Below, piece by piece: positions 23,995 through 61,686 of a stretch of 64,000 nt of DNA (its first letter is position 1; each line of letters opens with the position of its first letter). The notes below the pieces were generated by a model. It had not been told where the DNA came from and ran no database searches. It worked only from the letters and a program-made list of their open reading frames with translations. The position numbers and the translations under genes were made by a program. Origin of the DNA: Candidatus Zambryskibacteria bacterium RIFCSPLOWO2_01_FULL_35_19 (GTDB lineage: Bacteria; Patescibacteriota; Minisyncoccia; Phycocordibacterales; WO2-35-19); contig MHWA01000004.1 in assembly GCA_001825335.1 (NCBI GenBank), forward strand, positions 35,341-99,340. The letters are read 5' to 3'.

Positions 23995-23995
23995 A

Positions 23996-31202: not shown

Positions 31203-31415
31203 TAAGACAAATATGGACTGATGCGGATTTAAGCGGTATTATTTATAGATAATTGAATAAGCCTAAACTTGCCAAGCCAAATTAGCAAGCATGGCGCAAA
31301 CCCAACCACGGCAGAGAACTCCTCGTTCAGGAGCACCGTGGTTGGTCCCATCCGGAAACGGGTGGTGGGTGGCGTAAGCCATCGCCTGGCGGGGAGTTTT
31401 CTGCCATCCCAAAAC

Positions 31416-32951: not shown

Positions 32952-33127
32952 ATTGTACTTTTATAATAACAAATTTTCTGAACACTTTTTCGCGAAGAAG
33001 CGGAGGCCTTCCTATACAGGCCATATACTGCCTCTTTTTTTTATTGCTTTTACAAACCGACCATCAATTTGTTCGTACCGCTAAACAGCATATACCCCTC
33101 TTTCCAAGCCGACTATTAGAAAGAGCA

Positions 33128-43181: not shown

Positions 43182-43297
43182 TGTCTATATTATAATACAC
43201 ACATTACTCACGGTCGTATATAATCTGTGTATTACTCAGAAATAAAAAACTACTTTTAAAGTAGGTTTTTATTTAAATTTTGGTATCTTATGTAAAA

Positions 43298-44937: not shown

Positions 44938-45180
44938 ATGGCAAAAGAATGCGCAATAACAGGAAAATCATCACAAATGGGCGGTTCCTATTCAAACAGG
45001 ACTCGTGCTACTCAATTCAACCCTTGTGGCAATACAAGGAAATTTGCCAATTTACAGAAAAAGAAGATTTTTGTGCCAGAATTAGACAAAACTTTCACCC
45101 TTACTCTTTCCACTAAAGCTATCAAAACCATCCAAAAAAACGGCGCCTACGCCACTTTAAAAAAAGCCGGTTTGATTTAA
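44938..45180 (+). CDS. rpmB: 50S ribosomal protein L28
   Basis: 80 aa; MAKECAITGKSSQMGGSYSNRTRATQFNPCGNTRKFANLQKKK. Chosen over the overlapping ORF 44901..45116. Confidence 0.8.
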   Translation: MAKECAITGKSSQMGGSYSNRTRATQFNPCGNTRKFANLQKKKIFVPELDKTFTLTLSTKAIKTIQKNGAYATLKKAGLI

Positions 45181-45236
45181 AAAACCTAAAATAGTTCTTG
45201 AGTGAGATTCCGAAACAATCTATTTTAGGTTTTTTA
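45181..45236 (+). terminator. intrinsic terminator after rpmB
   Basis: AAAACCTAAAATAG (26-nt loop) CTATTTTAGGTTTT + TTATT. It shares CCTAAAATAGTTCTTGAG with the terminator after the HIT gene at about 51721. Confidence 0.5.
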
Positions 45237-48735: not shown

Positions 48736-48746
48736 AAATAAAAAAG

Positions 48747-48806
48747 AAATAATATTGTTTTGGAGAGCATTGACCCTTATGACCTAACGAGAAAACAGTA
48801 TTATTT
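48747..48806 (+). repeat. hairpin element with conserved loop (family copy 1)
   Basis: Stem AAATAATATTGTTTT/AAAACAGTATTATTT; loop GGAGAGCATTGACCCTTATGACCTAACGAG. Confidence 0.55.
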
Positions 48807-48811
48807 CTTTT

Positions 48812-49297
48812 TTATTCTTGGTGAAACGCTTTATAATCTAACAGATTTCCTTCAAACAGTTTCATCTGCTTTCCGTTAGCAAGACTTTGAGCTATCTCAT
48901 CACATCTCTCATTTAAAGTATGACCAGAATGTCCCAAGACTTTTTTCCATTCTACTTTTCTTTTTTCTGTTTCTCGCCAAAGCTCTTGCCACAAATCTTT
49001 ATTCAAAACTTCTTTTTTATCTTTAGTGCGCCAATTATTTTTCTGCCAACCTAAAATCCAAATAGTAATACCCTTCATCAAATATTCTGAATCAGTGTGT
49101 AATTTTGCTTCTGCTCCTTCCGGCAAAATTTTTAGAGCTTCAATAGCAGCTCTCATTTCCATCCGATTGTTGGTAGTATTTTCTTCATTACCTCCAATCT
49201 CTAAAACTTTTTCTTCATCAAAAATAATCGCGCCCCACCCTCCCTGTCCCGGATTTCCTTTTGATGACCCATCTGTATAAATTTCTACAAAACTCAT
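48812..49297 (-). CDS. rnhA: ribonuclease HI
   Basis: 161 aa; IYTDGSSKGNPG...HTDSEY. Confidence 0.85.
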   Translation of the reverse strand: MSFVEIYTDGSSKGNPGQGGWGAIIFDEEKVLEIGGNEENTTNNRMEMRAAIEALKILPEGAEAKLHTDSEYLMKGITIWILGWQKNNWRTKDKKEVLNKDLWQELWRETEKRKVEWKKVLGHSGHTLNERCDEIAQSLANGKQMKLFEGNLLDYKAFHQE

Positions 49298-49331
49298 AAA
49301 ATAATTTTAGCATAAATAATTCATCTTAAAT

Positions 49332-49403
49332 AAAAACAAAAATTACTATTCCAAGAGCATTATCCTTGCTGGCCTAACGCAGGAATAGTAATTTTTTGTT
49401 TTT
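49332..49403 (+). repeat. hairpin element with conserved loop (family copy 2)
   Basis: 21-bp stem AAAAACAAAAATTACTATTCC/GGAATAGTAATTTTTTGTTTTT; loop AAGAGCATTATCCTTGCTGGCCTAACGCA. Confidence 0.6.
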
Positions 49404-49407
49404 ATTT

Positions 49408-51135
49408 CTAAAAAAAATCCACAATCCTTAAACGGATTTCGGAGGAGCCATTGAAGAAAGATTTTTCAATATTGGCTACCAAGTTTGTTTTGATACCTTC
49501 TTTCAAAAAATCTCCAAACTGATCAGGTGAAGCAAAAAAAGAAATGCCTCTGACTTTGTTTGTGCCATCTACAAAATTAATAGAGAGGTGTTCCTTCGCT
49601 TTGCCAAACCTATTTATTTTCTCTGGTATGATATCTTTAAAAATAAAAATTGGTTTTTCATTACCTATCCCAAAAGGCGCCAAACCATTTATCTCTGCCA
49701 CAGATTTTTCTGAAATATCTTTTAAATTTAATTCTGCGTCAACTTCTATTTCTTCTTCTTTTTTTATCACATAAGTACAAGCTTCAACTAAAGCATCTTC
49801 AAGGGTGTGGATTTTTTCAAAATCAACTTCAAAACCACCAGACATTTTGTGCCCTCCAAATGAAGTAAAGGCACCGTCTACTCTTTCCATCAATGCCACC
49901 AAATCTGTCACCCCTTCCGAACGGCAAGAACCTTTTATCACTCCCTCCCCTTCTCTACCCCACAAAAAAACTGGTAAATTATATTCTTTCACTATTGAAT
50001 TGGCCACCAAGCCCAAAAGAGCCGGTCGCCAATCTGGATCACCCAAGACAATAACAGATTTTGCCCCCAAGTTTTCAAATTTTTCTTTTACTTTTTTCTT
50101 AGCCTCTTTGACAATGTTAGTCACTGCCACTTTTCTATCTTTATTTATGTTGTCTAAATGTTTAGCATAAATCCCCGCTTCTTCTTCATTATTGGCGGTC
50201 AAAAGTTTAAAAGCATCAAGAGGCAAGCCCATCCGACTAGCCGCATTGATACGAGGAGTAATCATAAAAGTAACATCATCTTCAGTCAGATTATTTTTAT
50301 TTATTCGCAAAATAGAAAGAAGTTTAGAAAAACCCGGACGCTTCCCTTTTCGTAAAACAGAAAGTCCAAAATGAGCCAAAGCCCTATTTTCTCCAGTAAG
50401 TGGCACCATATCAGAAAGAGTAGCCAATCCCACAAGATCTAGAAGCCATTTCTCCTGACCCTCTTTCAATAAATCTCTTTTTGTTTGAAGGATACCTTCA
50501 ATTATTTTCCAAACAACTCCAGTACCGCAAAGTATTTGCTCTGGATATTTATTATCTTTTCTTTTTGGATTTACAATAGCAAAAGCTTTTGGTAACTCAT
50601 CAGATGGTTCATGATGGTCGGTTATAACAACTTCCATTCCAAGTTTATTCGCTTCTTCAACATACTGATTGTCTCTGATACCACAATCAATAGTAATCAA
50701 AAGTTTAGTTTTTTTGTCGGCAATCTCTTTGATACCTTCCAAATTCAAACCATATCCTTCTATTCGCCTATTTGGAATATAATTTTCAAAATTGTTAAAA
50801 CCAATTAGTTTAAAGAAATCATGAAGGAGAGCTCCGCCAGGAATACCGTCAGCATCATAGTCGCTCCAGATGGTTATCTTTTCATCATTTTCAATAGCTT
50901 TTAAAATCCTCTCTACCACTTTTTTCATATCAGGTAAAAGGAAGGGGTCGTGCAAATGTTTTTCAAAATCTGGTTTCAAAAACCTCTCTGCTTCCTTTTT
51001 TGTTTTAATATCTCTGTTATATAAAAGTTGAGTAATTAGAGGACTAAAATCTTTAAGTTCTTCCTCCGCCTCTTTGCTCACTTTTCCCTTCAGATTGTAT
51101 TTAGTAGACATACCAGACATCATAACACACCTCAC
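49408..51135 (-). CDS. recJ: single-stranded-DNA-specific exonuclease RecJ
   Basis: 575 aa; DHH motifs (ITIWSDYDADGI, ITDHHEP), DHHA1 domain. Confidence 0.85.
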   Translation of the reverse strand: MRCVMMSGMSTKYNLKGKVSKEAEEELKDFSPLITQLLYNRDIKTKKEAERFLKPDFEKHLHDPFLLPDMKKVVERILKAIENDEKITIWSDYDADGIPGGALLHDFFKLIGFNNFENYIPNRRIEGYGLNLEGIKEIADKKTKLLITIDCGIRDNQYVEEANKLGMEVVITDHHEPSDELPKAFAIVNPKRKDNKYPEQILCGTGVVWKIIEGILQTKRDLLKEGQEKWLLDLVGLATLSDMVPLTGENRALAHFGLSVLRKGKRPGFSKLLSILRINKNNLTEDDVTFMITPRINAASRMGLPLDAFKLLTANNEEEAGIYAKHLDNINKDRKVAVTNIVKEAKKKVKEKFENLGAKSVIVLGDPDWRPALLGLVANSIVKEYNLPVFLWGREGEGVIKGSCRSEGVTDLVALMERVDGAFTSFGGHKMSGGFEVDFEKIHTLEDALVEACTYVIKKEEEIEVDAELNLKDISEKSVAEINGLAPFGIGNEKPIFIFKDIIPEKINRFGKAKEHLSINFVDGTNKVRGISFFASPDQFGDFLKEGIKTNLVANIEKSFFNGSSEIRLRIVDFF

Positions 51136-51177
51136 CCCTCACTTTGTGTAGCCCTCTCCTTACTAAGGAGAGGGAAG

Positions 51178-51250
51178 AAAAAATAAAAACTACTGTTCCA
51201 AGAGCCTTACCCTTATGACTTAACGCAGGAACAGTATGTTTTTGTTTTTT
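51178..51250 (+). repeat. hairpin element with conserved loop (family copy 3)
   Basis: Stem ...ACTACTGTTCC/GGAACAGTA...; loop AAGAGCCTTACCCTTATGACTTAACGCA. An 11-bp GC hairpin (51153-51175) precedes it. Confidence 0.55.
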
Positions 51251-51273
51251 CTTTTAGCGGTTATAATAAGATT

Positions 51274-51720
51274 ATGCATAACTGTATTTTTTGTAAAATA
51301 GTAAAAAAAGAAATACCGGCTCATATTGTTTATGAGGATGATGATTTTATGGCTTTCCTCGATATAAACCCCCTTTCTCCCGGACATTGTATGATTATTC
51401 CCAAAAAACACTACCGATGGGTTTGGGATGTGCCGTCCCGCTTCCGAAATTGTCCTAATGTTGAAAGCAATCTCCAAAACACTGGTCCCAATATTTCAGA
51501 CTATTTTGAAGTTGCTAGAAAAGTGGCCAAGGCCCAAATGAAAGCCTTTGATACAGATTGGATACTTTCAAAAATAGTAGGTGAGGATGTCCCTCACGCT
51601 CACATTTGGATTTACCCCAACAATAAAACAAAAGGTGACCCCCCTTCGCAAGGCTTCGGCGGGGCAAGCAAAAAGGATTTTGAAGGAAATACAGAGAAAA
51701 TAAAAACAAACCTAAAATAG
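51274..51720 (+). CDS. HIT-family (histidine triad) hydrolase
   Basis: 148 aa; CIFCKI...HAHIWIYP. Confidence 0.8.
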   Translation: MHNCIFCKIVKKEIPAHIVYEDDDFMAFLDINPLSPGHCMIIPKKHYRWVWDVPSRFRNCPNVESNLQNTGPNISDYFEVARKVAKAQMKAFDTDWILSKIVGEDVPHAHIWIYPNNKTKGDPPSQGFGGASKKDFEGNTEKIKTNLK

Positions 51721-51818
51721 TTCTTGAGCGTGCCTTGCGCAGGCTGACGAGTCGAGCAGAGCAATTTTCTAACAAGAAAATTGTGTGCTAAGCGAAAGAA
51801 GCTATTTTAGTTTTGTTT

Positions 51819-52844
51819 TTATGAATTTAACACTTCAATTCCCGGCAAAGTACCATTAGCTAGAAAATCGAGCATAGCTCCACCAGCAGTAGAAATAAAA
51901 CCATGTGTGATAATTTCATTTTTAACATCTCTATTGACAGTAGCTAAGGTGTCTCCCCCGCCAACTATCACTTTAGCTTTTGATTCGGACAATACCCTAG
52001 CCAAAGCAGTCGTGCCAGCGATAAAACCTTTTTCATAATTACCTAAAGGTCCATTCCATAAAATAAATCTGGCATCCACTATTTTTTCTTTCAAAACTTC
52101 TAAAGTTTCTGGATTAGCATCTAACGCATTTATGTCCCCTTCCGGTAAAATAATTTTAGGATTTTCTGATGCTAAAGATGTGGCATAAGGAGCCATAGCC
52201 CCACCAATAAAAATATGGTCGGCAATATTCAAAAACTTTTCTACCAAAGGAAGTTTGGTTTCAAATTTGGCTCCACCTAATATAACCAAAAATGGATGTT
52301 CCGGATCAAAAGATTCTGATAAATTTTGATATTCTTCTAAAAATCTAAATCCAGCAAAAGAAGGTATTAGTTTTGGCACTCCAACAATAGAAGTGTGTTT
52401 GCGGTGTGAAGCCGAAAAAGCTTCATTAACATAAATATCAGCAAAATTTGCAAGTTGTCTTGCGAAAGTCGGGTCATTTTCTTTTTCCATCCAAAATCTC
52501 AAGTTTTCTAAAACAGCTATTTCACCACTTCTCAAATCTTCCAAAGCGGTCTTACCATCCACCGCCGATTTGTTCCAAGGATCTTTAACAAACCTCATCC
52601 TCCTATTTGGGAAAAACTTTTCTGCCTGCTTAAACACTTTTTCAAGAGAATTAGTCCCATCACCCAAATGGCTCATTATTATTACCTTAGCTCCTTTCTC
52701 TAAACAAAAATTAATTGTCTTAACACTAGCTTCAATCCGAGAAGTGTCCAAAACCTCCCCTTCTTTATCTAAAGGCAAATTCCAATCTGTCCTTATTAAG
52801 ACTATCGTTCCTTCTATTATTTCTGCCTGTTCTATTGATTTCAT
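51819..52844 (-). CDS. pgk: phosphoglycerate kinase (short form)
   Basis: 341 aa; RTDWNLPLD N-domain and the GGGDTLA C-domain pattern. Confidence 0.8.
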   Translation of the reverse strand: MKSIEQAEIIEGTIVLIRTDWNLPLDKEGEVLDTSRIEASVKTINFCLEKGAKVIIMSHLGDGTNSLEKVFKQAEKFFPNRRMRFVKDPWNKSAVDGKTALEDLRSGEIAVLENLRFWMEKENDPTFARQLANFADIYVNEAFSASHRKHTSIVGVPKLIPSFAGFRFLEEYQNLSESFDPEHPFLVILGGAKFETKLPLVEKFLNIADHIFIGGAMAPYATSLASENPKIILPEGDINALDANPETLEVLKEKIVDARFILWNGPLGNYEKGFIAGTTALARVLSESKAKVIVGGGDTLATVNRDVKNEIITHGFISTAGGAMLDFLANGTLPGIEVLNS

Positions 52845-52847
52845 ATT

Positions 52848-53618
52848 TTATTTTTTCACATCCGCTGTTTGTAGAATCTCTTTAAATTCTTCAGGTTTGA
52901 GAGAGGCATGACCAACAAGAAAACCTTCAACATTGCCTATTTCTAATATTTCTAAAGCATTTTGAGATTCTACCGAACCACCGTAAAGAATTTTAGCAGA
53001 ATTAGCGATATCTCTTCCACATATTTCAGCCAATACTTTCCTTATATATAAAACAATAACGTGAATATCGGTCGGACTCATTGCTTCTTTGTATGATTTA
53101 CCGATCGCCCAAATTGGCTCGTAAGCAATAATGATGCCGACTAAATATTTTTTGTGTAAATCAGCCAAACATTCTTTTATTTGATTTTTTATAAAAGCAA
53201 GATGAGTGCCCTCTTTATCTCTTTCTTTTTCTCCTATACATAAAATTGGCGTAAGACCAGTATTAAATGTGATTTGAAGCTTTTTTCTTACTATTTCATT
53301 ACTCTCGCCCATCGCTCTTCTTTCTGAATGACCAACGATAACAAACTTAGCACTCAAATTTTTTATCATTTCCACACTAATTTCACCCGTAAAAGCTCCT
53401 TTAATTTCAGTGGAAGCATTTTGAGCTCCCAAAAACATATTTTTAGGATAAATCACTTTTGAAAGAGGAAAAATAAAGGAAAAAGGTGGGCAAACGACGA
53501 CATCAGTATTTTTAAGACCTTTGGCTGCTAATCTGGCTCCATTAAAGACTTTTTTAGCTTCCTCCAATGTCTCTGGATTCATTTTCCAGTTTGCTACTAC
53601 TATGTTACGTTTTTTCAT
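52848..53618 (-). CDS. tpiA: triosephosphate isomerase
   Basis: 256 aa; VVANWKMN, IILAYEPIWAIG. Confidence 0.85.
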   Translation of the reverse strand: MKKRNIVVANWKMNPETLEEAKKVFNGARLAAKGLKNTDVVVCPPFSFIFPLSKVIYPKNMFLGAQNASTEIKGAFTGEISVEMIKNLSAKFVIVGHSERRAMGESNEIVRKKLQITFNTGLTPILCIGEKERDKEGTHLAFIKNQIKECLADLHKKYLVGIIIAYEPIWAIGKSYKEAMSPTDIHVIVLYIRKVLAEICGRDIANSAKILYGGSVESQNALEILEIGNVEGFLVGHASLKPEEFKEILQTADVKK

Positions 53619-53632
53619 ATTTAAATTATAGC

Positions 53633-53710
53633 AAAAAATTACTGAAACATCATTTCAAGAGCATTATCCTTTTGACCTAACACAGAAATGATGTTTCAGT
53701 AATTTTTATT
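53633..53710 (+). repeat. hairpin element with conserved loop (family copy 4)
   Basis: Stem AAAAAATTACTGAAACATCATTTC/GAAATGATGTTTCAGTAATTTTT; loop AAGAGCATTATCCTTTTGACCTAACACA. Confidence 0.55.
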
Positions 53711-54948
53711 TATATTTCCCTCCAACCAACAATATCAAAACCTCCCCCCGGACCACTGATGAAATTAACATTAACTAAACCAATATCATAATCAATAGTA
53801 GCCCCATTATCCAATTCTACACTCTTAGCTGATACTGATTTAGCCCCAGCATTATTTGAAAATTTTACTTTACCTTTTTGAGCATTCAAAATGACTGCCC
53901 CAGCATTATTATCAATTTCTATAGCATTACCAGTATAAGTTGATACAAGCATCACATAACTACCAGCCGTCCCTGATCCTTGAAAAACAGAATTATTTGA
54001 TACTTTTATCTCATTATCTGAAATAAGTATTCCGCTACCACTACCATAAGAACTAGAAAGTTTAATCAGAGAACCGTTAGAGGTATCTATTTTCCCAGTG
54101 ACCCACACCGTTCCATTTATGGTAAGTCGGTAATTATTAGTCATTGTTAAATTACCTACTATTTTAACAGGACCAAGAGAAGAGCTTGAACTACTCAAAG
54201 AAACATTGCCGTTTATCACTCCTCCAGCTTCGGCTATCGCCTTCCAATTATCTATATCTTCATCTGAAACTGGAAAATCTTGAACAGGAGGATCGGGCAA
54301 AGAAGTATCACACGATTTGTTGTTACCACTACCAGTCTGGCAATATAAATTACCTGTAATATTACTGTTTGTAACTCTATTTGCATAAGCATCTCCTCCA
54401 GAAGTGCCTATATCTACATTATCTATAAAACCAAAATTAGAAACATAAGCAGAGCCGGTTATTCTAGATCCATTTGAACCTTCAATTTTATTATTTGAAT
54501 AAACATTTCCATTAACCCTAGAATTATTAGACATCTCTATGCCCCCAGTACCAACCTGAAGACCATAATGAAAGGAAACTCCTTCACCCAAAATAACAGT
54601 AGTTTTGATTTTCCTAAAATAATCATTGGCTTCTCCAATAGAAGTGATGGTTTTACCTCCAGACTCATCTACAACGGTCGTGGTCACACTATGGTTTCCA
54701 ACATTTAAAATTTGAGAAGTGGCTACTGGTAAACCCGCTTTCAAACGATAAACAACATCTTCAATTCCAGCTTCAGCCGCATAAAAACTTTCCTTTGAAA
54801 CAGCGATAGACGTGGCCATAGAAATATGACTGATTATCGGATTAGTTAATCCTAATATGATAATAGTGGTAATAGAAATAAAAAATATAACCATAGTGAC
54901 CATCACTTGGCCTTTTTCTTTTATTTGTTTATTTAAAAATAAAAACAT
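53710..54948 (-). CDS. hypothetical pilus-associated protein (412 aa, N-terminal TM)
   Basis: First gene of the pilin cluster; a Gly/Ser/Asn-rich beta-like repeat region. Confidence 0.35.
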   Translation of the reverse strand: MFLFLNKQIKEKGQVMVTMVIFFISITTIIILGLTNPIISHISMATSIAVSKESFYAAEAGIEDVVYRLKAGLPVATSQILNVGNHSVTTTVVDESGGKTITSIGEANDYFRKIKTTVILGEGVSFHYGLQVGTGGIEMSNNSRVNGNVYSNNKIEGSNGSRITGSAYVSNFGFIDNVDIGTSGGDAYANRVTNSNITGNLYCQTGSGNNKSCDTSLPDPPVQDFPVSDEDIDNWKAIAEAGGVINGNVSLSSSSSSLGPVKIVGNLTMTNNYRLTINGTVWVTGKIDTSNGSLIKLSSSYGSGSGILISDNEIKVSNNSVFQGSGTAGSYVMLVSTYTGNAIEIDNNAGAVILNAQKGKVKFSNNAGAKSVSAKSVELDNGATIDYDIGLVNVNFISGPGGGFDIVGWREI

Positions 54949-54958
54949 AAATTATTTT

Positions 54959-55492
54959 TTAATATGACCCACGAAGCACAGCAAATCCATAAAAATGTTT
55001 ACTTTTTGAAACAGCTCCAATAGTGCCAGAAACTTCTAATTCAATCCGCACCCCTTCAGAATTAGCATTTGAAACATACGTAAAAATTAAATTACTAACC
55101 TCCACAGAAGAAGTAAGAGCTGTCGGAGTAGCACTATTTTTAGAAATTAAAATACTACCAGAAGTTCCGTCATAAATAACATCATAAACATTAAGGAATT
55201 CATCAATACCGGACAATTTTAAAACACCAGGACTCGTCCCCAAAACACTGCTACCGACAACCACACTTTTTGCATTGCGAATATCTCTAAGCATACTCTC
55301 CATTGCAATAGCTCCAGAACTTTCAAGCTCACGAGTCAGTTTAATATTTTTATAAACTCCACCCATAGAAACAAGAGTCTGAACAACCACCCCCATTATT
55401 AATATGAGTAATGTTATATATAAAACAGTCTCTATCAAAGAGATACCACGATTATTTATATGCTTTTTAATTGTCAAAAATATTGCTAACAT
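54959..55492 (-). CDS. type IV pilin / pseudopilin
   Basis: The prepilin leader ends NRG|ISLIETVLYITLLIL. Confidence 0.55.
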   Translation of the reverse strand: MLAIFLTIKKHINNRGISLIETVLYITLLILIMGVVVQTLVSMGGVYKNIKLTRELESSGAIAMESMLRDIRNAKSVVVGSSVLGTSPGVLKLSGIDEFLNVYDVIYDGTSGSILISKNSATPTALTSSVEVSNLIFTYVSNANSEGVRIELEVSGTIGAVSKSKHFYGFAVLRGSY

Positions 55493-56012
55493 ATGTTGTT
55501 ATTTCACGAGTAGTAGTGCCAGTATCTTTCCGCCACGACACTGTAATAGTAACTTTCTTGGTATTTAAATCAGGTGAACCAGATATTGCTATATCTCCAG
55601 CTCCGTCTCTATTTACATCCTCAAAAACGACACGTCTATCAAACTGATTATCTATAAGGGTTAAAGTGGTAGTCGCTTCCCAAGCCACATTATCAAAAGC
55701 CAATATATAAGAAGCACCAGAAGAAAGAGGGGCGATGTTGGAAGTCCAGCTATCATCTCTCATAAATTTAACCGCTTCAATACCTTCTTCGGCCAAAAAA
55801 GAGGCCTGAAAAAGTGAAGGATTTGATACAGAAACTTTGATAAAAGCAGTATAAATTTTCCATATAATCAATATAGAAAAAGTAGCGACAGAAATCATTA
55901 TCACCATTTCAACCAAACTAAACCCACATTTTGTATCTCGCTTTGCTCGAACTTCACAGGGCAAGCTTTTTTTATTGAGATATTTTTGGTAAAAATAAAA
56001 TGAACTTTCCAT
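55467..56012 (-). CDS. type IV pilin-like protein
   Basis: KCG|FSLVEMVIMISV. Confidence 0.55.
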   Translation of the reverse strand: MESSFYFYQKYLNKKSLPCEVRAKRDTKCGFSLVEMVIMISVATFSILIIWKIYTAFIKVSVSNPSLFQASFLAEEGIEAVKFMRDDSWTSNIAPLSSGASYILAFDNVAWEATTTLTLIDNQFDRRVVFEDVNRDGAGDIAISGSPDLNTKKVTITVSWRKDTGTTTREITTYVSNIFDN

Positions 56013-56017
56013 ATAAA

Positions 56018-56491
56018 TTATTGTATCACTCCAGTCCCCAATATAGTAATGGTAGTTGAAGCACTATCATCTTTTAAAGAAAAAGTGACAGTGCCATAAT
56101 TTGAAGTATGACCAATTAATCTAGAAAAAACAACATCTGGACTACCAAGATTTAATAAATAGTTAGACATATAAACATCTTTAGAAAGTGTAACGATTTT
56201 TTCATTATCATTTCCAGCTACGTAAGCGCTACCTTCAAACAAAACAACTTTATTATTTTCAAAATGAATTCCAAAAGGTGAAGTGTTTTTTGAAGCGACA
56301 GAAAGAACTCTGGCATTACGAATAAGAGCCACCACGGAAGAGACATCTTTTTCAAGAACTTCTTTTTTATTTAATTTTGGAAAAAAATAAAAAGTTATAG
56401 ACAAAACCACTACCAAAATACTTATAACCACCACCACTTCCATCAAAGAAAACCCTTTATTAATTTTCATATTATTCAAATTTTGAATCAA
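56018..56491 (-). CDS. type IV pilin-like protein
   Basis: MIQNLNNMKINKG|FSLMEVVVVISILVV. Confidence 0.55.
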   Translation of the reverse strand: MIQNLNNMKINKGFSLMEVVVVISILVVVLSITFYFFPKLNKKEVLEKDVSSVVALIRNARVLSVASKNTSPFGIHFENNKVVLFEGSAYVAGNDNEKIVTLSKDVYMSNYLLNLGSPDVVFSRLIGHTSNYGTVTFSLKDDSASTTITILGTGVIQ

Positions 56492-56494
56492 AAC

Positions 56495-57709
56495 TTATTG
56501 TATCGCATCAACCAAAGAGTAAGTTGGCAACATCATAGCGATAGCAAAGATACCAACAGCAATACCGATAAAGACCATAAGAACGGGTTCTATAATAGTA
56601 GATAAATCTTTTGTCTTTTGATCTACTTCATTTTCATAATAAGTAGCGACATTATCCATCATATCGGTCATCTTGCCAGTCTCTTCACCTACAGCAAGCA
56701 TTTCAGCCACAAAAATTGGAAAAAGATCCCCTTTTGAATTAGAAAGTGACGAGGATAAGAGCTCTCCTACTTCCACTTGTTTGGCGGCATCATCTAATAA
56801 ATTTTTAAAATAATGATTTTGAATAACAGTGCTAGTGATACCAATAGCGGCCACAATATCAACTCCAGAAGAAATAAGAGAAGAGAGAGTTCTCGTTGTT
56901 CTAGCGGCATTGACCTCTTTAACCATAGTTTTAATCATAGGAAAATGAAGAATAAAAAAATCTAACACATCTTTACCTTTCTTTGTTTTGAGTCCAGAAA
57001 GAAATCCAAAAATAGCCCCAGCTGTTATTATCATTACCAAAATAATATTAGCTCTCAAAAAATCACTGATAGCAATAATAATCCTAGTTGGCAAAGGAAG
57101 CTCTATCTCAAGACCTTTAAAGGTTTCTGTTAACGTCGGCACCATATAAACCATAAGGACTACTCCGATGACCGCCATCACCGATACAATCACAGCGGGA
57201 TAAATCATGGCTCCTTTTATTTTTTTTGAAAGATTGTAAGCTTTTTCAAGTTGATCAGCCACAATTTTTAAAGAATTTGATAACTTCCCCGATTCTTCAC
57301 CCGCTTTAACCATAGCTACAAACAAATCAGAAAAAGTCTTTGGATGCTTTGCTAAAGAATTTGACAAAGTTTCGCCTCCATTAACCGAAACACCAACACT
57401 TTTAAGAATCTCTATAAATTTTTTATTTTTTAATTGCTTTTCTAATATGTTTAAAGCTCTAGAAACAGAAAGCCCTGCATCCACCATAACCGAGAGATTT
57501 TTGGCAAACATTATAACTTCTTGAGTCTTTACTTTTTTTGTAAAGGAAAACAATTTAATGTTCACTTTTTTGCCCCCTATCTCTTCAACAGAAAGAATAG
57601 AGCCCTCATTTAATCGAACGGCACTATAAAGACTAGCTTTGTCAGCAAATTCTTTTGTCTCTTCTTTTTCTTCTCCCTCTTTTACGTATTTGTATTTATA
57701 AAATGGCAT
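56495..57709 (-). CDS. pilC: type IV pilus / T2SS platform protein PilC/GspF
   Basis: 404 aa; two GspF repeats and three TM helices. Confidence 0.8.
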   Translation of the reverse strand: MPFYKYKYVKEGEEKEETKEFADKASLYSAVRLNEGSILSVEEIGGKKVNIKLFSFTKKVKTQEVIMFAKNLSVMVDAGLSVSRALNILEKQLKNKKFIEILKSVGVSVNGGETLSNSLAKHPKTFSDLFVAMVKAGEESGKLSNSLKIVADQLEKAYNLSKKIKGAMIYPAVIVSVMAVIGVVLMVYMVPTLTETFKGLEIELPLPTRIIIAISDFLRANIILVMIITAGAIFGFLSGLKTKKGKDVLDFFILHFPMIKTMVKEVNAARTTRTLSSLISSGVDIVAAIGITSTVIQNHYFKNLLDDAAKQVEVGELLSSSLSNSKGDLFPIFVAEMLAVGEETGKMTDMMDNVATYYENEVDQKTKDLSTIIEPVLMVFIGIAVGIFAIAMMLPTYSLVDAIQ

Positions 57710-57727
57710 TATATTTAAATTTTATTT

Positions 57728-59557
57728 TTATTCCGACACTACCCGCAAAACTTCTTCAATAGTAGTCAAACCTTGAGCCGCTTTAAAGATACCGTCTTCA
57801 AGCATAGTGAGCATTCCCTCTTTTTTGGCCTGCAATTCAATATCTTCGGTAGTAGATCCTTTTATGATTAAGTCTTTAATGGCAGTAGAAACATTAAGCA
57901 CTTCATAAATACCAATACGACTTTTAAATCCTCCATCTTTTGCTCCTTTTTTAGGTTTGTAAAAATGTATTTTATCCCAATTATCTCCTTTGCCCACGAT
58001 CTTTTCTTCTCTTAAAGCCTTCAAAACAATATCTAGATTAACCACTTTAGAAATAGACTCAATCTCTAATTTAGAGAGAGTATATTTTTCTTTTTCATCA
58101 GAAAGTTTTCTGACCAATCTTTGAGCGATAATAGCGTCAATAGTAGAGATGATAAGAAAAGGTTCAACTTTCATATCAATCAATCTAGGAACTGACCCAG
58201 CAGCCGAGTTGGTGTGAAGAGTTGAAAGAACCAAATGTCCAGTAAGCGAAGCATTGATGGCTAAAGAAGCTGTTTCGTTATCGCGAATTTCTCCGACCAT
58301 TATAATATCTGGATCTTGACGCACCAAAGTCCTCAATCCAGAAGCAAAAGTAAGGCCTATTTCAGATTTTACTTGAGTTTGATTAATTCTTGGCATCTGA
58401 TATTCAACTGGATCTTCAATAGTAGAAATATTGACATTGGGAGTATTTAAAATATCTAACATAGTATAAAGAGTGGTTGATTTACCGCTTCCAGTCGGTC
58501 CGGTAGTCAAAATCATACCAGTTGTGTGTTGTAGAGATTTATGTAACAGCTCTAAAGCTTCTCCATGAAAACCTAAAGACTCCAAAGTAAAACCAGAGAC
58601 ATTTTCTCTCAAAAGACGCATCACTGTTTTTTCACCATAATAAACTGGCAAAGTGGAAACACGAAAAGAAACTTTTTCACCATTCATATCAATTTTAAAT
58701 CTACCATCTTGAGGCAATCTTTTTTCGTCAAGTTTCAAACTAGAAAGCACTTTTATACGAGCCACCAAAGAGTTTCCTATATGTTTTGGTAAAATCATCG
58801 CGTCATGCAAGATACCATCAATACGATATCTGACTAAAACCTGATCCTCCAAAGGTTCTATATGAATATCAGAAGCGTTTTGGATGATGGCATGTTTGAG
58901 CAAAGTATCAACAATCCGCACTACTGGCAATTCTTCAGCTAATTTTTTTAAATCCCCTTCTGAAGCATCATCTACTGGTAATTTTTCAGAGATAGTTTTT
59001 ATCTCATCTGCATCAGCTTTTATAATATCTCCAAATTCATCTTTAAGATTTTTTTGATATTGAACCAAAGCACTACGCATAGATTCAGAATCAGTCAGAC
59101 GAGACAATATCTTCAAGCCCACTTTTTTCTTAATTGAATTTAAGGCCTGCAGATCGTCAGTATCAAGCATAGCCACTTCAAGAGCGTCTTCTTTTTTTTC
59201 AAAAGCTACTATATTGTGCTTTCTGGCAATAGGTTCAGGAATAAGATTTAAAATATCCCTATTTAAAACTTGACCTTTTAAATTTATAAAAGGGATACCT
59301 AAAATATAGGCCTGTATTCGTCTTAAATCATCATCAGAAAACTTACCTCTAGATATTAAGACATCATTTAAAGGTTTTTTCTTGGACTTGACTTCTTTTT
59401 CAATTTCTTCAATTTCAGATTTAGAAACAAGTCCAGCATCAATAATAAAATCTTTTATTTGTGAATCTTTTACATGCATACGATTTAGCGAAATCGTGTC
59501 GTGCGATACGTCCTTTGGAGCACGACCCTTTTCTATTAAGGGCTGACTAGAGCACAA
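57728..59557 (-). CDS. pilB: type IV pilus assembly ATPase PilB/GspE
   Basis: 609 aa; Walker A GPTGSGKSTT, the Asp box, and the His box. Confidence 0.85.
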   Translation of the reverse strand: MCSSQPLIEKGRAPKDVSHDTISLNRMHVKDSQIKDFIIDAGLVSKSEIEEIEKEVKSKKKPLNDVLISRGKFSDDDLRRIQAYILGIPFINLKGQVLNRDILNLIPEPIARKHNIVAFEKKEDALEVAMLDTDDLQALNSIKKKVGLKILSRLTDSESMRSALVQYQKNLKDEFGDIIKADADEIKTISEKLPVDDASEGDLKKLAEELPVVRIVDTLLKHAIIQNASDIHIEPLEDQVLVRYRIDGILHDAMILPKHIGNSLVARIKVLSSLKLDEKRLPQDGRFKIDMNGEKVSFRVSTLPVYYGEKTVMRLLRENVSGFTLESLGFHGEALELLHKSLQHTTGMILTTGPTGSGKSTTLYTMLDILNTPNVNISTIEDPVEYQMPRINQTQVKSEIGLTFASGLRTLVRQDPDIIMVGEIRDNETASLAINASLTGHLVLSTLHTNSAAGSVPRLIDMKVEPFLIISTIDAIIAQRLVRKLSDEKEKYTLSKLEIESISKVVNLDIVLKALREEKIVGKGDNWDKIHFYKPKKGAKDGGFKSRIGIYEVLNVSTAIKDLIIKGSTTEDIELQAKKEGMLTMLEDGIFKAAQGLTTIEEVLRVVSE

Positions 59558-59617
59558 CTTTATTTCTTTTTTATTATATCAGAAATAATTATATTTTAGA
59601 AAAGAAATATGTATATA

Positions 59618-60145
59618 TTAACTTCTAACTTTGTTTCTCATTTTAGAAATCAAATATTTTCTTGGATTTTTATCTAAGTCAATAAAATCATCAGCCACTT
59701 CTATGAGCCGAGCCGAACTAGATTTTCCAAAAGAAGCCACTTCAACCTGACAACCAACATTTTTTAGAAATTCTACTAGTGGAACAAAATCGCCATCACC
59801 AGTTATTAAGACAACGGCGTCTAATTTAGGAGCCAACTTAATAGCATCTACTGCCAAACCAACATCCCAATCCCCTTTTTTAGCGCCACCAGCAAAGACT
59901 TGCAAGTTTTTTGTTTTAGTTTCAATACCCATCTTTTCCAATGCCTCAAAAAAGTTTTTCTCTTCACCTGACTCGGTAGTAATAACATAAGCCACAGCTC
60001 TAGTAAGAAATCTGCCAGCCAAACTTTCTTTGACCACTTGGTCAAAGTTTACTTTTGCTCCATAAATGTTTTTGGCGCTATGATATAAATTTTGAGTATC
60101 TATAAAAATTCCCACCCGCTGATTTTTGTGTTTTATAACAGACAT
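59618..60145 (-). CDS. NYN-domain (LabA-like) protein
   Basis: 175 aa; VGIFIDTQNL...VLITGDGDFVPLV. Confidence 0.7.
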   Translation of the reverse strand: MSVIKHKNQRVGIFIDTQNLYHSAKNIYGAKVNFDQVVKESLAGRFLTRAVAYVITTESGEEKNFFEALEKMGIETKTKNLQVFAGGAKKGDWDVGLAVDAIKLAPKLDAVVLITGDGDFVPLVEFLKNVGCQVEVASFGKSSSARLIEVADDFIDLDKNPRKYLISKMRNKVRS

Positions 60146-60275
60146 ATTATTAAAATTAATCTAATTAGTAATTAACCTAATTATCCTAAACAATGACTAA
60201 TATTACAAACCCCAATTGGTTATTAGATAATTGGGATTTATTTAGAAAATTAGAATAATTAGGGCAATTAGAAAT

Positions 60276-60548
60276 TTATGCAGATTTTTTCAAACCAAGT
60301 TTTTTAACTAAAGAATTGTATCTTTTTGTATCTTTTTTCTCCAAATATTTCATATGAGATTTGCGATCTGCTACCAGACCCAAAAGACCTCTACGAGAAT
60401 GTTTATCTTTTTTGTTCTTTTTGAGATGTGTTGCCAAGTCATCTATCCTACGTGAAAGAATGGCGATCTGTGCTTCCGGACTACCGGTGTCAGTTTCGTG
60501 CATTTTTACCTCCTTTATAACTCGTTGTTTTTTATTTTTTGTTAACAT
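60276..60548 (-). CDS. rpsO: 30S ribosomal protein S15
   Basis: 90 aa; TGSPEAQIAILSRRI...LATHLK..KKD.HSRRGL; its terminator is CCCAATT...AATTGGG at about 60210-60240. Confidence 0.85.
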   Translation of the reverse strand: MLTKNKKQRVIKEVKMHETDTGSPEAQIAILSRRIDDLATHLKKNKKDKHSRRGLLGLVADRKSHMKYLEKKDTKRYNSLVKKLGLKKSA

Positions 60549-60661
60549 ATATATGAAAATTGTCTAAAAACGACCTTTTAAGAGTAGCATAAAACCAATT
60601 TTTATGCAACTTTTTAGTTTTTAAATATTGTGCGACGTTAAAAGGTGATAGAATAATATAT

Positions 60662-61615
60662 ATGGCACAAGACTTAGAACAATTAAAAAGGCAATTTTTA
60701 GAATACGTTGAAATAGAAAAGGGGCGGGCTTTAAATACGGTTGAAAATTACAACCATTACCTTTCAGTTTTTCTGAAACAAACCAAAGCTCAAAAACCAT
60801 CTGATATAAACGACACTATGATGCGGGAATTTAGATTGTGGCTCAACAGACAAGTTACCGGAAAAAATGTAAAAACCGGAGACACTATGTCAAAAAAGAC
60901 CCAAAATTATTACTTGATTGCCATAAGAGCTTTTTTAAAATATCTAGCAAGACAAGAAATCAAATCTATGCCATCTGAAAGAATAGAACTGGCCAAAACT
61001 TCAGAACGCTCTCTTGATTTAATTACAAACGCTGAATTACACAGATTACTTGAAGCTCCAAAATCTTTCGACTCTACTCAAGATAAAGATAATCATCTTA
61101 AGTATTTACGCGATAAAGCCATTTTAGAGCTCCTTTTTTCAACAGGACTTCGTGTATCCGAGCTCTGTTCCCTTACTCGTGATATTGACCTTACCACCGA
61201 CGAACTTTCAATAAGAGGAAAAGGAAGCAAGGTGAGAGTAGTCTTTATATCTGATTATGCCAAAAAGATTTTAAAAGAATATTTATCAAAAAGAAAAGAT
61301 ATGGATGATGCCCTTTTTGTTCAACTTTCACAAAACGGCAAAGTAACTAAAGAGAGGAAAGGAAGTCTGGCACTGACAAAAAGATCAGTAGAGAGGATAG
61401 TAAAACAGTGCGCAGTCAAAGCTGGTATTTCCAAAAAAGTCACTCCTCACACTATGCGTCACCTTTTTGCCACCGACCTACTTTCAAATGGCGCTGACTT
61501 GCGCTCTGTCCAAGCCCTCTTGGGCCACGCCAACATCGGCACTACCCAAATCTACACCCATGTCACCGACCGCCACCTCCGCGACATCCATAAAAAATTT
61601 CATAACAGAAAATAA
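60662..61615 (+). CDS. tyrosine recombinase, XerC/XerD family
   Basis: 317 aa; R...HTMRHLFATDLLSNGADLRSVQALLGHANIGTTQIYTHV (the catalytic Y). Confidence 0.8.
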   Translation: MAQDLEQLKRQFLEYVEIEKGRALNTVENYNHYLSVFLKQTKAQKPSDINDTMMREFRLWLNRQVTGKNVKTGDTMSKKTQNYYLIAIRAFLKYLARQEIKSMPSERIELAKTSERSLDLITNAELHRLLEAPKSFDSTQDKDNHLKYLRDKAILELLFSTGLRVSELCSLTRDIDLTTDELSIRGKGSKVRVVFISDYAKKILKEYLSKRKDMDDALFVQLSQNGKVTKERKGSLALTKRSVERIVKQCAVKAGISKKVTPHTMRHLFATDLLSNGADLRSVQALLGHANIGTTQIYTHVTDRHLRDIHKKFHNRK

Positions 61616-61686
61616 CAAAACTACTTTTCCAAGAGCCTTATCCTATTGACCTAACGCAGGAAAAGTATGTTTTGTTATTTTCTGTT
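61604..61686 (+). repeat. hairpin element with conserved loop (family copy 5)
   Basis: 27-bp stem AACAGAAAATAACAAAACTACTTTTCC/GGAAAAGTATGTTTTGTTATTTTCTGTT; loop AAGAGCCTTATCCTATTGACCTAACGCA. It spans the Xer stop and the xth start region. Confidence 0.6.

What the first reader, a model, noticed from the sequence alone, without database searches (positions are those of the whole stretch)
48747..61686. Family of five long hairpins with a conserved 28-nt loop and co-varying stems, all in the same absolute orientation
Copies lie at 48747-48806, 49332-49403, 51178-51250, 53633-53710 and 61604-61686. Each has a 15-27-bp AT-rich perfect or near-perfect stem whose sequence differs between copies but stays complementary, for example ACTATTCC/GGAATAGT, ACTGTTCC/GGAACAGT and ACTTTTCC/GGAAAAGT.

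The stems enclose a near-identical loop, AAGAGC(A/C)TTA(T/C)CCTT(N)TGAC(C/T)TAAC(G/A)CAGG. All five copies have the same polarity on the plus strand although the flanking genes run both ways. Four lie at 3' ends of minus-strand genes and one lies between plus-strand genes. This points to a DNA-level element rather than a transcript motif.

The arrangement is the inverse of a MITE, because the centre is conserved and the ends vary. One explanation is insertion of a short element into pre-existing terminator hairpins. Another is a protein-binding site presented on terminator loops.
Basis: seen in the sequence. Interest (0 to 1): 0.6.

Follow-up and report, generated by a model that had tools for sequence, protein, structure and literature searches.

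The report
Conserved-loop hairpin family in Parcubacteria
Five intergenic hairpins in this small groundwater bacterium belong to an apparently undescribed family of about 80 bases with an almost invariant 28-base loop on a stem that changes sequence but stays paired, and they are kept by selection for an unknown purpose.

Summary
Five copies lie on the + strand at 48737-48816, 49328-49407, 51178-51250, 53624-53717 and 61603-61687. The window is from a Candidatus Zambryskibacteria genome (Parcubacteria/CPR). The loop pattern found 35 sites in 185,579 species genomes, all Patescibacteria. It also found 96 metagenome stretches and nothing in viral contigs. No Rfam family matches.

Across about 112 distinct copies:
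- The roughly 25-bp A/U-rich stem covaries: 98% of cells paired, and 17 of 17 pairs show compensatory changes.
- A 1-nt bulge sits 9 bp below the loop on the 3' arm in 63 copies and never on the 5' arm.
- Mismatches are G.T or G.A on the AGAGC strand far more often than their complements.

Orthologous copies are 98.7% identical where third codon positions are 80-88% identical. Relatives lack whole hairpins, not just loops. Placement ignores gene arrangement, and orientation is only biased, 3:1 antisense to co-directional genes.

It is a selected, strand-specific structured element. It is not a plain terminator and not a loop insertion. My best guess, at 0.35, is an RNA hairpin whose loop docks a conserved factor. 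A REP-like single-stranded DNA element is the main rival.

The parts
48737..48816 (+). Copy 1: hairpin with a 25-bp stem and loop 48762-48791 (GGAGAGCATTGACCCTTATGACCTAACGAG; 'G-type' variant). It lies between the RNase H stop (48812) and the ComEC start (48735).
   Evidence: CM score 63.7 bits. The ortholog in L046 is 79/80 identical.
49328..49407 (+). Copy 2: hairpin with loop 49353-49381. It lies between the RecJ stop (49408) and the RNase H promoter-like TGCTAAAAT (49304-49312, minus strand) and start codon (49297).
   Evidence: CM score 85 bits. The ortholog in L046 is 78/79 identical plus one indel.
51178..51250 (+). Copy 3: hairpin with loop 51200-51227. It lies in the divergent region between the RecJ start/leader (51135-51177) and the HIT -10 box (TATAAT, 51262-51267) and start codon (51274).
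   Evidence: CM score 92.2 bits. Orthologous copies sit at the same site in L014 and L047, with a compensatory G-C to A-U change.
53624..53717 (+). Copy 4: hairpin with 33-nt arms and loop 53657-53684. It lies between the stop of the 412-aa ORF (53710) and the TIM start (53618). The outer 5' arm overlaps TIM's extended -10 (TGCTATAAT, 53625-53633, minus strand).
   Evidence: CM score 80.8 bits.
61603..61687 (+). Copy 5: hairpin with loop 61631-61658. It overlaps the stop of the Xer-like integrase gene (61615). It ends 3 nt before the likely ATG (61690) of the exo/endonuclease/phosphatase gene. It is the only copy in sense with its flanking genes.
   Evidence: CM score 91.1 bits. The site is empty in L018 and L028.

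Best explanation
These are members of a lineage-specific family of structured intergenic elements, 75-95 nt long, found in Zambryskibacteria/Nomurabacteria-type Parcubacteria.

Anatomy of one unit:
- An A-rich 5' arm and a U/T-rich 3' arm form a helix of about 25 bp.
- A single bulged base sits on the 3' arm, 9 bp below the apex.
- The apical loop of 27-30 nt is almost invariant: A-AGAGC(C/A)UUAUCCUUAUGACCUAACGCA.

Shown here:
- The AGAGC strand is the strand that folds.
- The fold and the loop are held by purifying selection at individual sites.
- Units are gained, lost and replaced as whole hairpins. They tend to sit near each other in the same orientation.

Inferred:
- The element acts as RNA, transcribed by read-through or pervasive (often antisense) transcription in a very AT-rich genome without Shine-Dalgarno sequences.
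- The long helix stops or caps such transcripts, so it works as an insulator or 3'-end cap between closely packed, individually promoted genes.
- The invariant loop, the two invariant U-A pairs and the bulge together form the docking surface for one conserved trans-acting factor, a protein or an RNA.
- That factor is the reason the loop cannot change.
For: Distribution and novelty:
- All 35 hits in species genomes are Patescibacteria.
- The metagenome scan gave 96 stretches and the viral scan none.
- No Rfam family matches, even at E up to 10.

Stem:
- In the genome-derived alignment 92.4% of cells pair and 14 of 17 pairs show changes on both sides.
- In 75 distinct metagenome copies 98.2% pair and 17 of 17 pairs show such changes. 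No shuffle of 500 reaches this, and slid controls give 41-54% paired.

Strand-specific fold:
- The bulge lies after exactly 9 bp on the 3' arm in 63 of 112 copies and never there on the 5' arm.
- G.T outnumbers A.C 53 to 15, and G.A outnumbers C.T 34 to 6 (p-values).

Selection at individual sites:
- Copies 1 and 2 are 98.7-98.8% identical to their orthologs in L046.
- Third codon positions of the flanking genes are only 80-88% identical.
- P(3 or fewer differences in 160 nt) is below 3e-6.

Context:
- Stop codons abut the hairpin base (median 0-6 nt), while start codons lie 20-32 nt away.
- The genome uses -10 boxes close to start codons (20 of 49 genes) and almost no Shine-Dalgarno motifs (1 of 49).
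- The arms have the A-tract/stem/T-tract layout of the ordinary bidirectional terminators in this window, for example 5066-5098.
- One copy, L010 4586-4692, tolerates a 34-nt hairpin inserted inside the loop. That fits a folded nucleic acid better than a contiguous double-stranded binding site.
Against: - There are no expression data, so transcription of the AGAGC strand is assumed. In the commonest context (39 of 89) that strand is antisense to both flanking genes.
- The G.T over A.C asymmetry is strongest exactly in that context, 19 to 2.
- No -10-like hexamer peaks at a fixed distance upstream of the hairpin on either strand.
- A 28-nt loop and an AT-rich stem are poor features for intrinsic termination, and the terminator scan does not flag the hairpins.
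- Occupancy is the same in co-directional (12%), divergent (16%) and convergent (12%) intergenic regions, chi-square p = 0.6. A gene terminator would be expected to avoid divergent regions.
- No partner factor was identified.
Confidence: 0.35

Rival explanations
1. A REP-like element that works as single-stranded DNA. The AGAGC strand extrudes as a DNA hairpin. Its loop and bulge are recognised by a strand-specific DNA enzyme such as an HUH/Y1 nuclease, a RAYT-like protein or a tyrosine recombinase. That enzyme copies or moves the unit to nearby intergenic sites. The host tolerates or exploits the copies.
For: - The polarity of the fold follows the element, not the flanking genes.
- Placement is indifferent to gene arrangement.
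- Whole units are present or absent at orthologous sites. The same slot is filled in opposite orientations (L025 against L031) or by a second family (L048).
- Copies cluster: 5 in 13 kb of this 64-kb window, and 5 in 21 kb of a 112-kb contig.
- Neighbouring copies share orientation in 15 of 17 cases.
- The folding strand lies mostly on the C-rich strand, 30 of 42.
- From my own knowledge, a conserved loop on variable complementary stems is also the layout of HUH Rep origin hairpins.
Against: - No Y1 transposase, RAYT, Rep or any transposase was found in the window.
- None appears among 200 neighbouring genes or in 1.1 Mb of surrounding sequence.
- Orthologous copies are far better conserved than synonymous sites. 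This is not expected for decaying selfish copies.
- Copy number is low, at most 8 strict matches per genome.
- No GTAG/CGTC tag and no conserved terminal repeats were seen by eye in the aligned copies.
- Target-site duplications were not tested.
Confidence: 0.25
2. A family of sibling small RNAs acting in trans. Each hairpin is released from a 3' UTR or from divergent transcription. It then uses the exposed 28-nt loop to pair with a conserved RNA target or to titrate a protein.
For: - The loop is invariant across genomes whose proteins are only 50-70% identical.
- Strand-specific G.U and G.A tolerance is seen.
- Location is independent of gene arrangement.
- The U-rich 3' arm could end the transcript.
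Against: - No promoter-like element lies at a fixed distance upstream.
- No convincing complementary target was found in 1.1 Mb of sequence. The 10-11-nt matches, including one to tRNA-Lys, are at chance level by my own estimate.
- The intergenic space is almost entirely filled by the hairpin.
Confidence: 0.15
3. A double-stranded DNA site. The 28-bp asymmetric sequence would bind a DNA-binding protein such as a roadblock, a nucleoid protein or a regulator. The flanking inverted repeat would be an ordinary bidirectional terminator or a cruciform.
For: - The sequence is asymmetric, invariant and 28 bp long, with direct repeats CCTTAT-CCTTAT-GACCTAAC.
- It occurs in any intergenic context, including upstream of promoters such as dnaK, HIT and RecJ.
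- Orientation is biased relative to gene or replication direction.
Against: - A duplex site does not explain the covarying arms. It also does not explain the excess of G.T and G.A over their complements, or the bulge fixed on one arm.
- The L010 variant splits the site with a 34-nt insertion.
- By my own comparison from memory, which is not a test, there is no match to the DnaA, IHF, dif or CtrA consensus.
Confidence: 0.1
4. One reading: a mobile 28-nt module inserted into the loops of pre-existing, unrelated terminator hairpins.
For: - The arms look like this genome's ordinary A-tract/stem/T-tract terminators.
- The plain hairpin at 43240-43274 shares a 12-nt stem stretch (AAAACTACTTTT) with copy 5.
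Against: - Empty orthologous sites lack the whole hairpin.
- The inner 9-10 bp, two invariant U-A pairs and the bulge position are conserved together with the loop and keep its polarity.
- Stem types recur across genomes.
- A search for family-type stems carrying short loops found none that was convincing.
Confidence: 0.05
5. Stem-loop guide RNAs of a TIGR-Tas system. These are palindromic stems enclosing box C/D motifs and two spacers, and they are known from CPR bacteria.
For: TIGR stem-loop arrays occur in Patescibacteria and have variable palindromic stems around a loop (PMC12045711; bioRxiv 10.64898/2026.09.09.750476).
Against: - The loop is invariant, so it holds no spacers.
- The copies are dispersed one per intergenic region, not in tandem arrays.
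- No Nop-domain (Tas) gene is present in the window.
Confidence: 0.02

Closest known systems
REP/BIME elements of Enterobacteria and Pseudomonas, especially BIME-1/RIP units (two inverted REPs around a central IHF-binding segment)
   Same: - Both are short extragenic palindromic units in multiple copies per genome.
- Both have a strand-specific imperfect hairpin with mismatches or a bulge.
- Both are dynamic in presence and absence between relatives.
- BIME-1 also has a conserved central segment between inverted arms.
   Different: - In REPs the stem sequence is conserved and the loop is free. Here the loop is invariant and the stem only keeps its pairing.
- There is no GTAG/CGTC tag.
- No RAYT was found.
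- Copy number is tens, not hundreds.
- These elements are as frequent between divergent genes as elsewhere.
Correia (CREE/NEMIS) elements of Neisseria and other bacterial MITEs
   Same: - Both are small non-coding intergenic repeats whose ends pair into a long hairpin in transcripts.
- Both have a conserved core that carries a protein-binding site.
- Both insert next to genes in either orientation.
   Different: - Correia ends are conserved terminal inverted repeats with a TA target duplication. Here the ends differ between copies, and no target duplication was examined.
- No transposase candidate was found.
- Individual copies are under purifying selection.
Bidirectional intrinsic terminators (A-tract, hairpin, U-tract)
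   Same: - Both have an A-rich 5' arm and a U-rich 3' arm.
- Both sit directly after stop codons.
- The layout is symmetric and usable in both directions.
   Different: - The loop is 27-30 nt and invariant instead of 3-8 nt and free.
- The stem is AT-rich.
- These elements are found equally in divergent promoter regions.
- The fold is constrained on one strand regardless of gene direction.
Origin hairpins of HUH Rep proteins (geminivirus/circovirus nonanucleotide loop, rolling-circle plasmid double-strand origins)
   Same: Both have a conserved loop sequence displayed on a stem whose sequence varies but stays complementary. Both are used as an extruded single strand with polarity.
   Different: - Origin hairpins occur once per replicon next to a rep gene. 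Here there are many chromosomal copies and no rep gene.
- The loop here is three times longer.
- No iterons were looked for.
Integron attC sites
   Same: - Both are recognised, or recognisable, by structure rather than stem sequence.
- Both have extrahelical bases that give strand polarity.
- In both, the folding strand tends to lie on the leading-strand template.
   Different: - attC sites have conserved R''/R' boxes at the base and a variable apex. Here the apex is conserved and the base variable.
- There is no cassette array and no integron integrase. Only an ordinary Xer-like gene lies beside copy 5.

Membership tests
Any Rfam 15 family | Match to a curated covariance model | tested here: not met
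   No hit at the hairpins at gathering score. With E up to 10 only generic AT-hairpin chance matches appear (Plastid-psbA-4, mir-200, mir-320), all far below their cut-offs.
Intrinsic (Rho-independent) terminator | Short G+C-rich stem with a loop of 3-8 nt | tested here: not met
   Stems are AT-rich (whole-hairpin GC 0.22-0.44). Loops are 27-30 nt. None is reported by the terminator scan.
Intrinsic (Rho-independent) terminator | U-rich tract directly after the stem | tested here: met
   The 3' arm is T-rich (1362 T of 2766 stem positions). The consensus is ...UUUuuuuuuUuuuuu. The same holds on the other strand.
Intrinsic (Rho-independent) terminator | Located at gene 3' ends and absent from divergent promoter regions | tested here: not met
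   Occupancy is 12.1% in co-directional, 15.7% in divergent and 12.2% in convergent regions, chi-square p = 0.60. Window copy 3 and the dnaK/PaaX-like copies are in divergent regions.
REP / BIME | Conserved stem sequence with a 5' GTAG or CGTC tag, loop free to vary | tested here: not met
   The stem sequence differs between copies and 17 of 17 pairs show compensatory changes. The loop is nearly invariant. No GTAG/CGTC tag was seen by eye at the 5' side in the aligned copies; no dedicated search for the tag was run.
REP / BIME | Associated RAYT (Y1/HUH TnpA_REP) gene in the genome | tested here: inconclusive
   None was found in the window by Pfam. None was found by phmmer in 3,618 ORFs from 1.1 Mb of loci.
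REP / BIME | High copy number (hundreds per genome) | tested here: not met
   There are 5 copies in 64 kb here. At most 8 strict-pattern matches occur in one species genome, Ike-100m-2.
MITE | Conserved terminal inverted repeats and target-site duplication | tested here: inconclusive
   Outer arms are not conserved between copies, which fails the first half of the feature. Target-site duplications were not tested because the stem ends are fuzzy in AT-rich flanks.
Integron attC | R'' (RYYYAAC) and R' (GTTRRRY) boxes paired at the base, variable apex, cassette array beside an intI gene | tested here: not met
   ACCTAAC occurs only once, inside the loop, with no GTTRRRY partner. The base of the stem is variable. 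Copies are dispersed between housekeeping genes.
TIGR-Tas stem-loop array | Tandem array next to a Nop-domain tas gene; two variable 8-12-nt spacers flanked by box C/D in each loop | tested here: not met
   Copies are dispersed. The loop is invariant. No Nop-domain protein is present in the window. Feature definitions are taken from PMC12045711.
HUH Rep origin hairpin | Conserved loop on a variable complementary stem, adjacent rep gene | tested here: inconclusive
   The first feature is met. No rep or HUH gene was found nearby. Nicking cannot be tested here.

The most novel reading that the evidence does not exclude
A recognition system specific to Parcubacteria. An invariant 28-nt sequence is displayed at the tip of a strand-specific hairpin wherever there is intergenic space. 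It is read by an as yet unknown conserved factor on antisense RNA or single-stranded DNA. The element would then be neither a gene terminator nor a REP/RAYT transposon. It could, for example, be a punctuation or insulation device of genomes that lack Shine-Dalgarno pairing and transcribe most genes singly as leaderless mRNAs.
Probability: 0.25. Interest if true: 0.8.

Novelty: new variant of a known kind. Interest (0 to 1): 0.62.

Why it matters
CPR/Patescibacteria make up a large share of bacterial diversity, yet almost nothing is known about their non-coding elements or how their transcription units are delimited.

This family combines several strong signals:
- Covariation as clear as in well-established structured-RNA families.
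- A loop that stays invariant across genomes whose proteins share only 50-70% identity.
- Clear purifying selection at individual sites.
- A polarity that does not follow the genes.

This combination calls for a dedicated partner factor. Finding that factor would give a handle on gene expression or genome maintenance in organisms that are mostly uncultivated. The family is also a ready candidate for Rfam and for metatranscriptome re-analysis.

Its inverse conservation pattern, with a fixed loop and a free but paired stem, is a useful counter-example for repeat finders that look for conserved arms.

Tried and rejected
- Rfam at gathering and permissive thresholds gave nothing relevant.
- The viral contig scan with the loop pattern gave 0 hits, so there is no sign of phage origin.
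- TIGR-Tas stem-loop guides were read up in two papers and rejected on an invariant loop, no array and no tas gene.
- The Weinberg 2017 paper on 224 RNA motifs has no mention of a comparable motif in its main text. Three further full-text searches for such elements in CPR found nothing.
- Strain-level comparison failed. Ten contigs carrying the identical RNase H all have identical hairpins, so they are uninformative about turnover.
- A dedicated promoter was not found. No positional peak of TAnn[AT]T or TGnTAnnnT hexamers lies upstream of the hairpin on either strand.
- A search for a trans target complementary to the loop gave only chance-level 10-11-mers. These include tRNA-Lys(CUU) and a small hairpin between tRNA genes in L118.
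- Y1 transposase/RAYT homologues were not found.
- A search for loop-less hairpins with family-type stems gave no convincing examples. The hairpin at 43240-43274 shares only a 12-mer with copy 5.
- Replichore control of orientation was rejected. GC skew is negative across the whole window, but only 30 of 42 copies lie on the C-rich strand. One contig, Ike c23, contradicts the idea.
- Several ideas were considered from memory and dropped:
  - An anti-SD/SD mimic in the loop. This genome has essentially no SD motifs.
  - The mini-ORF ATG-ACC-TAA in the loop.
  - DnaA-box, IHF, dif and pC194-type nick-site resemblances. None was tested, and all matches were partial.
- No covariation was found inside the loop because there is too little variation. 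The only linked change seen is A...C to G...A at the loop-closing positions.


Full report
**1. The observation**

A relaxed loop pattern matches five times, all on the + strand, against 0.01 matches expected by chance. The inverted-repeat finder gives arms of 22-33 nt at 82-100% complementarity, separated by 28-30 nt.

Each hairpin folds far better than its shuffles, with z-scores of -5.6 to -9.6.

Gene context comes from the ORF list and Pfam:
- Copy 1 lies between the RNase H stop and the ComEC start.
- Copy 2 lies between the RecJ stop and the RNase H start.
- Copy 4 lies between the stop of a 412-aa ORF and the triose-phosphate isomerase start.
- Copy 5 lies between a Xer-like integrase gene and an exonuclease/phosphatase gene on the + strand.
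- Copy 3 lies between the starts of RecJ (-) and HIT (+).

**2. Source and distribution**

RecJ of the window is 100% identical to a protein of a Candidatus Zambryskibacteria MAG. NCBI places this group in the Parcubacteria group of Patescibacteria.

The loop pattern was scanned against three collections:
- One genome per species for 185,579 species gave 35 sites. All are in Patescibacteria MAGs named Nomurabacteria, Zambryskibacteria, Paceibacteria or 'Saccharibacteria', with up to 8 per genome.
- Metagenome contigs gave 96 stretches.
- Viral contigs gave none.

Every hit has its own long inverted repeat around the loop. Rfam 15 has no matching family, even at E up to 10. Full-text searches found no description of such an element.

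**3. Anatomy**

An alignment of 40 genome-derived copies (A1) shows the following:
- The loop A-AGAGC(C/A)TTATCCTT(N)ATGACCTAACGCA is nearly invariant.
- U-A pairs at stem positions 3 and 4 are invariant or nearly so.
- The rest of the stem varies.

On a 17-bp structure, 92.4% of cells pair and 14 pairs change on both sides.

A covariance model built from A1 (R1) recovered all copies and a few that the pattern had missed. In the independent set of 75 distinct metagenome copies, 98.2% of cells pair and all 17 pairs show compensatory changes. Slid controls give 41-54% paired.

Measured without the model on 112 distinct copies:
- The median stem is 25 bp (range 18-34).
- A single-base bulge (G in 39, T in 15, C in 9) lies on the 3' arm after exactly nine pairs in 63 copies. 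It never lies at that depth on the 5' arm.

One copy, L010 4586-4692, carries a perfect 11-bp hairpin inserted between AGAGCC and CCTCATGACCTAACGCA. The loop can therefore be split at UUAU.

**4. Which strand folds**

Stem mismatches are strongly asymmetric on the AGAGC strand:
- G.T outnumbers A.C by 53 to 15, or 39 to 15 counted as distinct events.
- G.A outnumbers C.T by 34 to 6. This includes a conserved tandem G.A/A.G in the outer stem of the subfamily TTGCGAG...CTCGAGCAA.
- The p-values run from 1.5e-3 to 4e-6 if copies are treated as independent, which they are only partly.

On the other strand these positions would be A.C and C.U mismatches. The AGAGC strand is therefore the one selected to fold as a single strand.

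The asymmetry is strongest where both flanking genes run the other way, with G.T 19 against A.C 2. It therefore does not follow the mRNA. Ordinary replication- or transcription-linked deamination bias would predict the opposite asymmetry. That last point is my inference from established mutation-bias knowledge.

**5. Selection at individual sites**

L046 is a relative whose RecJ is 89% identical in protein sequence. It has orthologous copies 1 and 2.
- The copies are 79/80 and 78/79 identical.
- The flanking genes are 89-94% identical in nucleotides and 80-88% identical at third codon positions.
- Three or fewer differences in 160 nt has probability below 3e-6 at 12% divergence.

The orthologous copy 3 in L047 (RecJ 83% identical) differs by a compensatory G-C to A-U change. 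The hairpins, stems included, are therefore under purifying selection where they sit.

**6. Turnover**

Synteny with L014, L031, L025, L018, L028, L047 and L048 shows that slots are filled and emptied as whole units:
- The RecJ/RNase H and RNase H/ComEC gaps are 0-31 nt with no hairpin in L031, L014 and L047.
- The RecJ/HIT slot is filled in the window, L014 and L047, and empty in L031 and L025.
- The PGK/HIT slot is filled in L031 and L025, in opposite orientations.
- The site of copy 5 is empty in L018 and L028.
- In L048 the RecJ/RNase H slot holds a hairpin of a second family, with loop GCTGCAGARCGAGTCTCGCTT. That family also occurs in both orientations.

Copies cluster: 5 in 13 kb of 64 kb here, and 5 in 21 kb of a 112-kb contig. 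Neighbouring copies share orientation in 15 of 17 cases. Neighbouring genes are ordinary housekeeping genes such as RecJ, DnaK, a PaaX-like protein, HIT, IF-2, RNase H and ribosomal proteins. No transposase is among them.

**7. Relation to genes**

Among 89 copies with both neighbours called:
- 39 are antisense to two co-directional genes.
- 13 are in sense with two co-directional genes (39 against 13, p = 4e-4).
- 20 lie between convergent genes.
- 17 lie between divergent genes.

GC skew is negative on the motif strand in 30 of 42 copies. It is negative along the whole window. Orientation is therefore a bias rather than a rule, and five of five in one direction is not remarkable.

Against the background of 697 intergenic regions in the same loci, occupancy is 12% in co-directional, 16% in divergent and 12% in convergent regions (p = 0.6). 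Where a gene ends at a hairpin, the stop codon abuts or overlaps the stem base (median 0-6 nt). Start codons lie 20-32 nt away.

This genome has almost no Shine-Dalgarno motifs (1 of 49 genes). It often has a -10-like hexamer 5-11 nt before the start codon (20 of 49), frequently as TGnTAnAAT. This agrees with the reported lack of the anti-SD motif in part of the Parcubacteria (PMC9297842). No -10-like hexamer sits at a fixed distance from the hairpin on either strand.

**8. Interpretation**

Firmly shown:
- The family is real and lineage-specific.
- It has a strand-specific fold.
- Sequence is constrained in the loop, in two stem pairs and in the bulge position.
- Individual copies are under purifying selection.
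- Whole units are gained and lost.

Excluded or unlikely:
- A simple gene terminator, given the loop size, the AT-rich stem, equal use of divergent regions and the fold polarity.
- Insertion of a 28-nt module into older hairpins.
- TIGR guide RNAs.
- attC sites.
- Classical REP/RAYT or MITE membership.

The remaining question is whether the folded strand acts as RNA or as single-stranded DNA.

I favour RNA, at 0.35. I picture an insulating or end-capping hairpin for read-through and antisense transcripts in an AT-rich, tightly packed genome that promotes genes singly. A conserved factor would dock on the loop, the U-A pairs and the bulge. My reasons are:
- The in-place conservation argues for a host function.
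- The arms copy the local terminator layout.
- The loop tolerates a hairpin insertion.

A REP-like single-stranded DNA element, at 0.25, explains the gene-independent polarity, the clustering and the turnover better. However, it lacks an enzyme and fits the in-place conservation poorly. The sibling-sRNA model (0.15) and the duplex-site model (0.10) remain possible.

**9. Novelty and score**

The closest known kinds are the small extragenic palindromic repeats (REP/BIME, Correia elements) and bidirectional terminators. The conservation pattern here is the inverse of theirs. The defining features of each were tested and mostly not met (see the membership table).

I rate this a new variant of a known kind, with interest 0.62. 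It is a well-supported, apparently undescribed structured element from a poorly understood part of the bacterial tree, and its function is still open.

Noticed in passing
window 14502-33836: A comM-like Mg-chelatase gene appears split into a C-terminal part (14502-15167) and an N-terminal part (33081-33836), both on the minus strand. Between them lies an insert of about 18 kb. The insert carries a serine recombinase (17301-19061), a phage RepO-like gene, a Schlafen/AlbA_2 gene, AAA_5 and VWA genes, and an intact second comM-like gene (31416-32951). It looks like an integrated mobile element.
   Followed up: partly
window 22685-22803 (-) and 31260-31383 (+): Two LOOT RNA matches (Rfam RF03000, 73-77 bits) lie inside that insert. 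One lies about 165 nt beyond the stop codon of a reverse-transcriptase gene (22969-23994). The other lies next to the intact comM-like gene.
   Followed up: no
window, all genes (for example 49304-49312, 53625-53633, 51262-51267): Only 1 of 49 genes has a Shine-Dalgarno-like motif. In 20 of 49 genes a -10-like hexamer, often TGnTAnAAT, ends 5-11 nt before the start codon. This suggests mostly leaderless, singly promoted genes. It fits the reported loss of the anti-SD motif in part of the Parcubacteria (PMC9297842).
   Followed up: partly
window 51136-51177 (minus-strand sense); also L047, L077, L139, L004/L120: A G+C-rich hairpin (CCCTCTCCTTAGTAAGGAGAGGG) followed by GGGGTGAGG sits directly upstream of RecJ. 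It is conserved in several relatives and may be a leader or regulatory element of recJ.
   Followed up: no
L048 3674-3751 and 6306-6385; L084 about 2170-2260; L031 6041-6106; L003 1126-1190; window 45178-45236: A second family of long A/U hairpins has its own conserved loop (GCTGCAGARCGAGTCTCGCTT; a related loop is TTGCAAGACGAGCCTCA). It occurs in both orientations and sometimes in slots that hold the first family in other genomes. The window hairpin at 45178-45236 is the positional counterpart of the L031 copy but has a different loop.
   Followed up: partly
L010 4586-4692 (+): A family member has a perfect 11-bp hairpin with a UCCC loop inserted inside the conserved loop, between AGAGCC and CCTCATGACC. 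It lies 1 kb from a normal copy and in the opposite orientation.
   Followed up: partly
alignment A2; window copy 1 (48762-48791), L004, L066, L073, L108, L120, L125: The base just before AGAGC and the C of AACGCA change together. Most copies have A...C, and a 'G-type' subgroup has G...A. This could be a non-canonical closing pair or simply shared descent.
   Followed up: no
L118 about 715-745: A short hairpin between two tRNA genes has the stem GCGTTAGG/CCTAACGC and shares 11 nt with the conserved loop. It may be chance.
   Followed up: no
L035, L098, L109, L084 (upstream of genes starting MNENKDEIEVLV or MKEDILEEFQVY): Long conserved 5' leaders of about 100-130 nt begin with GTTAAA(T/G)T(A)GCTCT and lie between a family copy and the gene. 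They may be an unrelated cis-regulatory RNA.
   Followed up: no
window 8958-9025: A long hairpin with a structured 24-nt loop lies between smpB (8472-8915) and the tmRNA gene (9046-9461). It has the same A-tract/stem/T-tract layout as the family but an unrelated loop.
   Followed up: no
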